A stretch of DNA of 59,269 nucleotides from a virus. Lineage: Duplodnaviria; Caudoviricetes. Both the position numbers and the translations under genes were made by a program. This document shows, piece after piece, positions 38,797 through 38,912 of the stretch (position 1 is its first letter; every line of letters begins with the position of its first letter). Where the stretch lies: positions 1 through 59,269 of the IMG/VR virus record IMGVR_UViG_3300010052_000141; one strand, 5' to 3'. Under the pieces are notes generated by a model. The model was not told the DNA's origin. It saw only the letters and a list, made by a program, of their open reading frames with translations, and ran no database searches.

Positions 38797-38912
38797 GGCA
38801 CGGCTGGCGAGGCTAGGAGCGGCATGGTCCGGATTGGAATGGTCGGAATGGTCAGTCATGGCAGGCTTGGCAAGCAATGGCTGGGCGAGGGCAGGCTGGA
38901 TACGGCAGGCGC
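38797..38912 (+). repeat. Non-coding GGY-NN pentamer array 1 (two guide-like blocks)
   Basis: GGCAC GGCT | GGCGA GGCTA GGAGC GGCAT GGTCC GGATT GGAAT GGTC GGAAT GGTCA GTCAT GGCA | GGCTT GGCAA GCAAT GGCTG GGCGA GGGCA GGCTG GATAC GGCA | GGCGC. Confidence 0.9.

What the first reader, a model, noticed from the sequence alone, without database searches (positions are those of the whole stretch)
38806..38859. Guide block 1 decodes to a site in the ejection gene (33045-33077)
NN string GA TA GC AT CC TT AT (C-) AT CA AT, read as NNx, gives E/D-Y-A-I/M-P-F/L-I/M-?-I/M-Q/H-I/M. The sequence at 33045-33077 is GAG TAC GCT CGG CCA TTT ATC GAC TTG CAA GTT (EYARPFIDLQV). Seven of 11 dinucleotides match codon positions 1+2 exactly and two more match at one base. 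One unit (GGTC) is only 4 nt long.
Basis: seen in the sequence. Interest (0 to 1): 0.85.

Follow-up and report, generated by a model that had tools for sequence, protein, structure and literature searches.

The report
Phage VIPR guide against kin phages

Summary
38806-38859 is eleven GGNNN units, one of them 4 nt. Its NN string matches codon positions 1+2 at 33045-33077 in 7 of 10 full dinucleotides.

The element is a VIPR system, known from 2026 bioRxiv preprints. Those describe a Cas7-like Vipr protein, an accessory gene and GGY/NN guide RNAs that read DNA as NNx. Gene 38034-38786 matches the solved SUSP1 Vipr protein (E 2.8e-8) and folds like Csm3/Cas7. Pentamer arrays flank the next gene here and in 27 of 29 related loci.

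The self match is weak: 16/20, reached by 11 of 500 shuffles. The homologous site in three Vipr-less kin phages (capsid 85-93% identical in two of them) matches 18-19 of 20, reached by 0 of 500 shuffles. A second guide (39536-39580) matches two of those phages 18/18.

So the code and the gene are right, but the likely target is the rival phages' copy, not the phage's own.

This is a new member of a known kind. The scan has already met VIPR arrays in at least 8 other genomes.

The parts
38034..38786 (+). vipr gene (P0002, 250 aa): Cas7/RAMP-like protein that would coat the guide RNA
   Evidence: A profile of 67 family members hits PDB 36pp_D 'SUSP1 Vipr protein' at E 2.8e-8, across the G-loop. 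The AlphaFold2 model has pLDDT 95.3. Its top Foldseek hits are Csm3/Cas7 chains 6ifn_F and 6ifn_E, E about 4e-5 to 1e-4, and 32 hits have E<=0.001. No Pfam hit; PHROG 4652, function unknown.
38797..38912 (+). Upstream vrRNA array: 24 GG-anchored units between vipr and vap
   Evidence: Sequence; phasing scan; unit parse. The opening GGCAC GGCT resembles the GGCACGGCAGGC that opens the arrays of related loci.
38806..38859 (+). Guide block 1 (the finding): 11 units, NN = GA TA GC AT CC TT AT (blank) AT CA AT
   Evidence: It matches the kin-phage ejection gene at 19/20 (G405), 18/20 (G403) and 18/20 (G404), and the phage's own copy at 16/20. The flanking units do not extend the match.
38841..38844 (+). 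4-nt unit GGTC inside the guide; behaves as a blank that still spans one codon of the target
   Evidence: In all three kin targets the match stays in register across this unit. In three other cross-phage matches that are perfect within 9-unit windows, a 4-nt unit lines up with one whole codon. It is internal to the matched run in two of them and at its 5' edge in the third.
33045..33077 (+). Self site in the putative ejection-protein gene (ORF 32736-34364): the diverged homologue of the target
   Evidence: 16/20 read bases. Its peptide EYARPFIDLQV aligns with DYAMPLIN[LMT]Q[IM] in many of the homologues. At the fourth read codon the phage's own protein has R, while 14 of 22 other homologues have M.
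38942..39463 (+). vap-type accessory gene (P0001, 173 aa), function unknown
   Evidence: It follows vipr here, and in most related loci it abuts or overlaps vipr. 75 homologues plus the window's own protein were found. No Pfam, PDB-sequence or Foldseek match. The Atlas returns only viral hypothetical clusters.
39473..39595 (+).
   Evidence: Block 4 (39536-39580) matches tail genes of G403 and G405 at 18/18. Block 3 (39482-39526) matches G405 at 16/18.
39600..39627 (.). GC-rich hairpin flanked by A and T runs at the end of the operon; likely terminator
   Evidence: Sequence. The consensus scan calls it on the - strand only. On the + strand the 3' arm itself ends in TTTTT.

Best explanation
The window is a P22-like temperate phage. 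Between its ejection and tail genes it carries a VIPR (Viral Interference Programmable Repeat) system: vipr at 38034-38786, a vap-type gene at 38942-39463, and two arrays of GGNNN units.

Block 1 (38806-38859) is one guide. By analogy with the solved SUSP1 system, one Vipr protomer would bind each unit, hold the GG(Y) bases, and present the two N bases. Those bases pair with the DNA target strand while every third target base is skipped. The guide therefore reads codon positions 1 and 2.

The site it spells best is D-Y-A-M-P-L-I-N-M-Q-I in the ejection-protein gene of closely related phages that lack VIPR. The likely effect is transcriptional silencing of a virion gene of a competing kin phage.

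The phage's own copy (EYARPFIDLQV, 33045-33077) differs at four read bases and is probably spared.

Shown here: the Vipr homology, the array anatomy and its conservation, and the match statistics. Inferred: that the RNA is made and cut as one 11-unit guide, that it binds DNA, that it silences, and that four mismatches protect the self site.
For: 1. P0002 is a Vipr. Its family profile hits PDB 36pp_D 'SUSP1 Vipr protein' at E 2.8e-8. Family GvGDfR aligns with SUSP1 GVGDWR, and a family Arg aligns with SUSP1 R138. The structure preprint names D177, W178, R179 and R138 as the GGY-binding residues. The model folds like Csm3/Cas7.

2. GG arrays phased at 5 nt lie on the gene strand next to the P0001 homologue in 27 of 29 loci scanned. 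Six of the 35 loci held were dropped as duplicates. In 25 of the 29 there is no - strand signal. The longest array is about 1.4 kb.

3. The skip rule works in this clade. Of 3857 nine-unit windows, 8 have a perfect match in the 680-kb local database, against 0 for their shuffles.

4. Block 1 scores 19/20 in G405, 18/20 in G403 and 18/20 in G404. All three matches are in frame on the coding strand at the homologous codons, and 0 of 500 shuffles reach these scores in each record. The self site scores 16/20, reached by 11 of 500 shuffles.

5. Scans of all of IMG/VR: the exact 20-base pattern gives 0 hits. Relaxed at two positions, it gives 2 contigs, and both are this same site.

6. Independent convergence. 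Block 4 matches tail genes of G403 and G405 at 18/18, and block 3 matches G405 at 16/18.

7. The targets are kin without VIPR. Capsid identity is 93% (G405) and 85% (G403). The Vipr profile finds nothing in G403 (complete, terminal repeats), G404 or G405.
Against: - No RNA data exist. No RNA run is listed, so the ends of the guide, and even its expression, are inferred.
- The three kin records were fetched because they are homologous to the best self hit. The local shuffle tests are therefore not blind (especially). G403, G404 and G405 are related to one another and count as roughly one event.
- No perfect (20/20) target was found anywhere.
- In 401 genomes of the Bradyrhizobium family the pattern gave only chance-level hits at up to 2 mismatches: 3 hits against 1 for the reversed control, none in an ejection gene. 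An 18/20 score alone therefore occurs by chance in gigabases.
- The self sites are not clearly below the published 80% line. Block 1 is 80% with the short unit blank, and block 4 is 16/18 = 89% by my count from the alignment. 'Self is spared' is therefore unproven.
- Four of the 11 units have A at position 3. The SUSP1 pocket is said to exclude purines there.
- Foldseek TM-scores are modest (0.30-0.48, except one 770-residue type III-D chain at 0.24/0.10).
Confidence: 0.8

Rival explanations
1. The phage's own site 33045-33077 is a working target. The VIPR complex binds it despite four mismatches and damps the phage's own ejection and tail genes, for example to keep late genes silent in the lysogen or to time them.
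For: The best window-wide match of block 1 is in the phage's own ejection gene, in codon register. Block 4 matches the phage's own tail gene at 16/18, which is above the preprint's 80% cut-off (my count from the alignment). A functional SUSP1 guide reads its satellites at 89% on average.
Against: Kin sites match better for three guides. At the fourth read codon the self residue R is found in none of 22 other homologues, which looks like escape. The preprint found no self hits at 80% or more in its sets and reports that disturbing NN pairing abolished silencing.
Confidence: 0.12
2. Block 1 is a real VIPR guide, but its resemblance to ejection genes is chance or shared composition. The true target is not in the data searched, or the block is a decayed guide.
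For: The self match alone has p of about 0.02-0.09. The array in this window is more degenerate than in relatives: only one in-register run of 6 or more units. 18/20 hits turn up by chance in 401 genomes.
Against: The score rises from 16 to 18-19 of 20 at the homologous codons of kin genes, whereas a chance match should fall towards the mean. 0 of 500 shuffles reach these scores in each kin record. The only IMG/VR contigs matching the relaxed pattern are these sites. Blocks 3 and 4 converge on the same phages.
Confidence: 0.05
3. The array is not a guide at all. It could be a binding array for a ring or filament RNA-binding protein (TRAP-like triplets with 2-nt spacers), a CsrA sponge, or a tract prone to two-tier G-quadruplexes.
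For: GG every 5 nt with 3-nt loops could form two-tier quadruplexes. The triplet-plus-2-nt spacing resembles TRAP sites (TRAP spacing is from my own knowledge). These were my first ideas.
Against: The neighbouring gene is a Vipr homologue. The variable NN bases carry in-frame matches to kin phage genes, which none of these models predicts.
Confidence: 0.02

Closest known systems
VIPR systems (Vipr + vap + vrRNA), type II of Escherichia phage SUSP1 and a Pseudomonas fulva prophage. Sources: bioRxiv 10.64898/2026.04.26.720920 (Results and Methods sections 18, 20, 26, 27 read), structures in 10.64898/2026.04.26.720927 (sections 5 and 6 read), competition study 10.64898/2026.10.15.759431 (sections 6 and 17 read).
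   Same: - A phage-borne two-gene locus with a small RAMP protein.
- Guide arrays of GG(Y)NN units before and after the genes, on the gene strand.
- NN read with one skipped base that falls on the wobble position.
- Targets lie in competing mobile elements.
- The G-loop D-aromatic-R motif and the thumb Arg are conserved.
   Different: - Sequence identity to SUSP1 Vipr is detectable only by profile.
- No conserved 3' tail or pseudoknot is evident; blocks are instead punctuated by 4-nt units, mostly GGCA.
- Position 3 is A in 4 of the 11 units of this guide.
- The targets are virion genes (ejection protein, tail) of close kin, not satellites or lysis-lysogeny regulators.
- Homologous self sites score 78-89%, whereas the preprint reports no self hit at 80% or more.
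- Which of the seven published types this is could not be told, because the supplements are closed.
Class 1 CRISPR effector backbones (Cas7/Csm3 on crRNA)
   Same: RAMP fold with G-loop and thumb; one protomer per repeat unit of the guide; periodic base flipping. Top fold matches are 6ifn chains E and F.
   Different: No CRISPR repeats, spacers, Cas6 or large subunit. The period is 5 nt with only 2 pairing bases, against 6 nt with 5 pairing bases (CRISPR periodicity as cited in the preprint).
Superinfection-exclusion and immunity genes of the P22 immI region (sieA, mnt, arc, ant). P22 gene order is from my own knowledge.
   Same: Same genomic slot between the ejection genes and the tail gene. 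The presumed role is also the same: acting against other phages in a lysogen.
   Different: A wholly different mechanism, RNA-guided DNA binding. No homology was tested or claimed.

Membership tests
VIPR system | Vipr protein: a small RAMP (RRM core, G-loop, thumb) related to the described Vipr proteins | tested here: met
   Profile A2 against PDB sequences gives 36pp_D 'SUSP1 Vipr protein', E 2.8e-8. The AF2 model has pLDDT 95.3. Foldseek top hits are Csm3/Cas7 chains 6ifn_F and 6ifn_E, the same entry the preprint used as its query.
VIPR system | GGY-binding residues: G-loop D177, W178, R179 and thumb R138 of SUSP1 Vipr | tested here: met
   In the HMM alignment, SUSP1 GVGDWR pairs with family GvGDfR, which is P0002 G182-D183-F184-R185. 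G182 and R185 are invariant and D183 is at 90% or more among 67 sequences. SUSP1 R138 pairs with the family Arg, P0002 R144, also at 90% or more. W is replaced by F.
VIPR system | Arrays of tandem 5-nt units, conserved GG(Y) plus hypervariable NN, flanking the genes on the gene strand | tested here: met
   Window. Related loci: 27 of 29. In a parse that counts overlapping chains more than once, position 3 is C about 75%, T about 15%, A about 7%, G about 3%, and positions 4-5 are near-uniform. In block 1 itself, position 3 is a purine (A) in 4 of 11 units.
VIPR system | NN dinucleotides match targets in other mobile elements under the 1-nt skip rule (80% or more, gapless) | tested here: met
   Block 1: 95%, 90% and 90% in three kin phages. 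Block 4: 100% in two of them and in a further related phage. Block 3: 89%. For the clade, 8 perfect nine-unit windows against 0 for shuffles.
VIPR system | No self hit at 80% or more on the source contig (reported for the preprint's sets) | tested here: inconclusive
   Block 1 on self is 16/20 = 80%, or 16/21 = 76% if the short unit counts. Block 4 on self is 16/18 = 89%. Block 3 on self is 14/18 = 78%.
VIPR system | Adjacent vap accessory gene of one of the six described vap families | tested here: inconclusive
   A conserved 173-aa partner gene follows vipr. It has no Pfam, PDB or Foldseek match. The vap families are defined in supplements I could not open.
VIPR system | vrRNAs are expressed, processed to about 100 nt and co-purify with Vipr; type II has a conserved 3' tail or pseudoknot | not testable with these tools
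   No RNA run is listed for this sequence. I did not fold or model a tail. No conserved tail is obvious by eye.
CRISPR-Cas (class 1) | CRISPR repeat-spacer array and a multi-gene cas operon | tested here: not met
   No direct-repeat array was reported by TRF or Rfam. Only two genes lie between the arrays.

The most novel reading that the evidence does not exclude
This VIPR is a kin-exclusion device. Its guides are kept trained on the phage's own family of virion genes (ejection protein, tail), so the carrier must hold amino-acid changes at the read codons of its own copies, such as M to R at the fourth codon of the block 1 site. On this reading, RNA-guided silencing directly drives diversification of structural proteins among close relatives. 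The 4-nt units would act as deliberate blanks that let a guide step over a variable codon.
Probability: 0.3. Interest if true: 0.65.

Novelty: new member of a known kind. Interest (0 to 1): 0.4.

Why it matters
The finding shows that the published VIPR code can be read off raw sequence in a soil P22-like phage of the Bradyrhizobium group. It also yields concrete, testable guide-target pairs.

It adds three details that I did not find in the parts of the preprints I read:

- Guides aimed at virion genes of near-identical kin.
- Homologous self sites that sit just at the published identity cut-off.
- Short 4-nt units that keep the codon step.

These bear on how a carrier avoids silencing itself and on how many mismatches the system tolerates. 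Both matter if VIPR is to be used as a programmable repressor.

Tried and rejected
**Early ideas.** I first considered a TRAP-like RNA-binding array, a CsrA sponge, G-quadruplex DNA or RNA, a pac or centromere-like DNA array, and Chi-like protection. I dropped them once the paper search and the Vipr homology explained the pattern.

**Detection tools.** Rfam at gathering thresholds found only two tRNAs. Tandem Repeats Finder saw only a 9-nt two-copy repeat inside the array.

**Searches for ejection-gene homologues and targets.**
- A single-sequence search for relatives of the ejection-gene segment in IMG/VR found none.
- The exact 20-base guide pattern has 0 hits in IMG/VR.
- An ejection-protein profile found nothing in the two Bradyrhizobium genomes that carry related VIPR loci.
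- The same profile hit 10 of 401 genomes of that family. Only one hit was near full length (G301, locus L041), where the guide's best score is 12/21 and not at the homologous site.
- The guide pattern at up to 2 mismatches in the same 401 genomes gave 3 hits against 1 for the reversed control, none in an ejection gene. I read these as chance.
- The metagenome scan added two further partial homologues, scoring 16/21 and 15/21.

**Other blocks.** Block 2 (38864-38903) has no convincing target in self, G403, G404 or G405; the best score is 10/12, in both self and G404.

**The partner protein P0001.** Foldseek against PDB found nothing with E<=0.001. The Atlas returned only viral hypothetical clusters.

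**Expression.** No RNA holder is listed. The one DNA run listed holds a small share of the words, and I did not lay it. I did not use read laying, complex prediction, build_rna_model or strand folding.

**Supplements.** The supplementary files of the preprints (type table, data S3 and S4, figures S17-S18) were not opened. They may already list this clade, its type and its array architecture.

Full report
**What is there.** The window is a P22-like phage. It has a P22-type portal (24177-26147), a major capsid gene (27450-28595) and a head-closure gene (30081-31529). The finding lies in the 155-nt gap between ORF 38034-38786 (P0002) and ORF 38942-39463 (P0001).

The site 33045-33077 is also as written, and it is in frame in ORF 32736-34364.

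A scan for GG phased every 5 nt shows two tracts, 38776-38869 and 39467-39561, on either side of P0001. They hold 34 of the 45 + strand positions with 6 or more GG in 11 phased units. The - strand has 2 such positions in the whole window. A GC-rich hairpin with flanking A and T runs (39600-39627) closes the unit.

Scored as NNx on both strands of the window, the string has one best site, 33045: 7 of 10 full dinucleotides and 16 of 21 bases. The runner-up has 5 dinucleotides.

Shuffling the order of the NN units gives 7 or more dinucleotides somewhere in the window in 37 of 1000 trials, and 16 or more bases in 92 of 1000. With the 4-nt unit left blank (16/20), 11 of 500 shuffles reach the score.

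**What the element is.** My first ideas were a TRAP-like binding array or a G-quadruplex tract. Related loci changed that. Homologues of P0001 in Bradyrhizobium genomes and IMG/VR contigs carry the same kind of array with different NN bases.

I scanned 29 loci, having dropped 6 of the 35 held as duplicates. Of these, 27 have phased GG arrays on the gene strand next to the homologue, and 25 show no - strand signal. The arrays reach about 730 nt in L016 and about 1.4 kb in L035.

[quoted passage not shown] I read its Results and Methods sections 18, 20, 26 and 27, plus passages with figure legends. It describes VIPR systems:

- a small RAMP protein (Vipr), an accessory gene (vap), and vrRNAs made of alternating GGY and NN;
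- NN bases that pair with DNA while one target base per unit is skipped;
- a skipped base that falls on the wobble position;
- natural targets in competing phages, prophages and satellites;
- target calls at 80% or more NN identity, gapless, with no self hits at that level in their sets.

A companion structure preprint (sections 5 and 6 read) shows one protomer per repeat and names the GGY-binding residues. A third preprint (sections 6 and 17 read) shows that a six-unit guide works in vivo and reads its targets at 89% on average.

**Membership.** A profile of 67 P0002 relatives hits the PDB chain 36pp_D, 'SUSP1 Vipr protein', at E 2.8e-8. The aligned stretch pairs family GvGDfR with SUSP1 GVGDWR, and a conserved Arg with SUSP1 R138. 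The structure paper says these positions hold G1, G2 and Y3.

The AlphaFold2 model (pLDDT 95.3) finds Csm3/Cas7 chains first: 6ifn_F and 6ifn_E at E about 4e-5 to 1e-4, with 32 hits at E<=0.001 and modest TM-scores (0.30-0.48 for all but one 770-residue chain).

P0001 is a conserved partner gene without any recognisable family. I call it vap by position only.

**Where block 1 really points.** Protein homologues of the ejection-gene product carry D-Y-A-M-P-L-I-N-[L/M/T]-Q-[I/M] at the position of the self peptide EYARPFIDLQV, at least in many members. At the fourth codon, 14 of 22 other homologues have M, 5 have L, 2 have K and one is not alignable there. Only the window's own protein has R. 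Two of the 22 fit the guide at all ten read codons at the amino-acid level.

In DNA, the homologous sites score as follows:

| Record | Peptide at the site | Score (short unit counted) | Score (short unit blank) |
|---|---|---|---|
| G405 | DYAMPLINMQI | 19/21 | 19/20 |
| G403 | DYAMPLINTQI | 18/21 | 18/20 |
| G404 | DYAMPLINLQM | 18/21 | 18/20 |
| Self | EYARPFIDLQV | 16/21 | 16/20 |

Two metagenome fragments score 16/21 and 15/21. In each of G403, G404 and G405, 0 of 500 shuffles reach the observed score.

In a pooled 680-kb database of all loci held, no shuffle of 1000 reaches 19 bases or 9 dinucleotides. That database was assembled after seeing the self hit, so this null is not blind.

Across all of IMG/VR, the exact 20-base pattern has no hit. 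The pattern relaxed at two positions hits two contigs, and both are this site. I designed the relaxed pattern after seeing them. It therefore shows only that nothing else in IMG/VR matches as well.

The match runs in the sense of the coding strand. The RNA could therefore pair with the template DNA strand but not with the mRNA.

**Independent support.** The second block of the downstream array (39536-39580) matches the tail genes of G403 and G405 perfectly, 18/18 (GTPVDPTTV). It also matches that of a further related phage, L072. The fourth IMG/VR hit, L070, lies in an unrelated context. The block at 39482-39526 matches G405 at 16/18, against 14/18 in self.

G403, G404 and G405 are kin of the window phage. 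Capsid identity is 93% for G405, 93% for G404 over the last 59 residues only, and 85% for G403. The tail gene is 65% identical in G405 and 58% in G403; G404 gave no tail hit. The head-closure gene is 72-86% identical in all three.

The Vipr profile finds nothing in any of the three. G403 is a complete genome with terminal repeats.

The rule also holds elsewhere in the clade. Among 3857 nine-unit windows, 8 have perfect matches, against 0 for their shuffles. Examples are L002 to L009, L008 to L001 and L035 to L005. In these, a 4-nt unit lines up with one whole codon; it is internal to the matched run in L002 and L035 and at the 5' edge in L008.

**What speaks against, or stays open.**
- There is no expression evidence.
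- No perfect target for block 1 exists in the data searched.
- In 401 Bradyrhizobium-family genomes the pattern at up to 2 mismatches gives only chance-level hits, 3 against 1 for the control.
- The three kin sites are homologous to one another and count as about one event.
- The self sites are not clearly sub-threshold: block 1 is at 80%, block 4 at 89% and block 3 at 78%. Whether the carrier spares itself is untested.
- Four of the 11 units have A at position 3, unlike the GGY of SUSP1.
- The array architecture differs from the type II description. Blocks are punctuated by 4-nt units, mostly GGCA, and I saw no conserved tail.
- I could not assign the published type because the supplements are closed.

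**Verdict.** The best-supported target is the homologous site in kin phages rather than 33045-33077 itself.

The system is a VIPR locus, already described in 2026 preprints. This scan has met such arrays before in at least 8 other genomes. One of those notes (e1-3289100) likewise reports arrays that spell the rival phages' version of a neighbouring gene. I therefore class the finding as a new member of a known kind. Its extra points of modest interest are kin-directed guides against virion genes, near-threshold self sites, and blank short units.

Noticed in passing
window 39536-39580: A second guide block (NN = GG AC CC GT GA CC AC AC GT) matches the tail genes of kin phages G403 and G405 perfectly, 18/18, and also that of L072. 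The phage's own tail gene at 40004 scores 16/18.
   Followed up: partly
window 39482-39526: This guide block starts with a degenerate GTCGA unit. It matches the G405 tail gene (DTQALFIYI) at 16/18, against 14/18 at the self site 40148.
   Followed up: partly
The best score is 10/12, found both at self 31598 and at the homologous G404 site. It may be decayed or aimed at something not held here.
   Followed up: partly
L035 3973-5372; L016 4502-5230: Very long GGCNN arrays (about 1.4 kb and about 0.7 kb) lie downstream of the partner gene in distant relatives. In L035, successive in-register runs of 7-15 units often overlap by 1 nt, which fits the 'staggered arrays' named in the preprint's legend for Fig. 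S18.
   Followed up: partly
L002 3514 -> L009 2339; L008 4520 -> L001 1299; L035 4503 -> L005 7540: These are perfect cross-phage guide-target matches (16-18 read bases) between VIPR-carrying relatives. The targets lie in genes 1.6-3.5 kb from the target locus's own partner gene. I did not identify the target genes.
   Followed up: no
arrays of all related loci: 4-nt units are mostly GGCA (about two thirds), giving a recurring GGCAGGC. Arrays open with GGCACGGCAGGC, or in another subgroup with GG..GGATCACGGC..GGCAGGC after a hairpin. These may be processing or handle signals.
   Followed up: no
window 38942-39463: The partner protein has an invariant G-G-G-Y motif, an invariant W-F-x-W motif and an invariant Q-A-R-x-F motif, but no match to any Pfam family, solved structure or named Atlas cluster.
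   Followed up: partly
Gordonia and Mycobacterium phages: P0002 has 27-30% identical relatives, annotated as hypothetical proteins, in 30 actinophage records such as Gordonia phage Pipp and Mycobacterium phage Donkeykong. This suggests VIPR-like genes in well-studied actinophage clusters.
   Followed up: no
window 16555-16592: An imperfect CAGAG period-5 repeat was reported by Tandem Repeats Finder. It has no GG phasing, lies inside ORF 16176-17009 and is probably unrelated to VIPR.
   Followed up: no
window 12471-12542 and 21383-21455: The phage carries two tRNA genes (Rfam RF00005, 52.5 and 60 bits).
   Followed up: no
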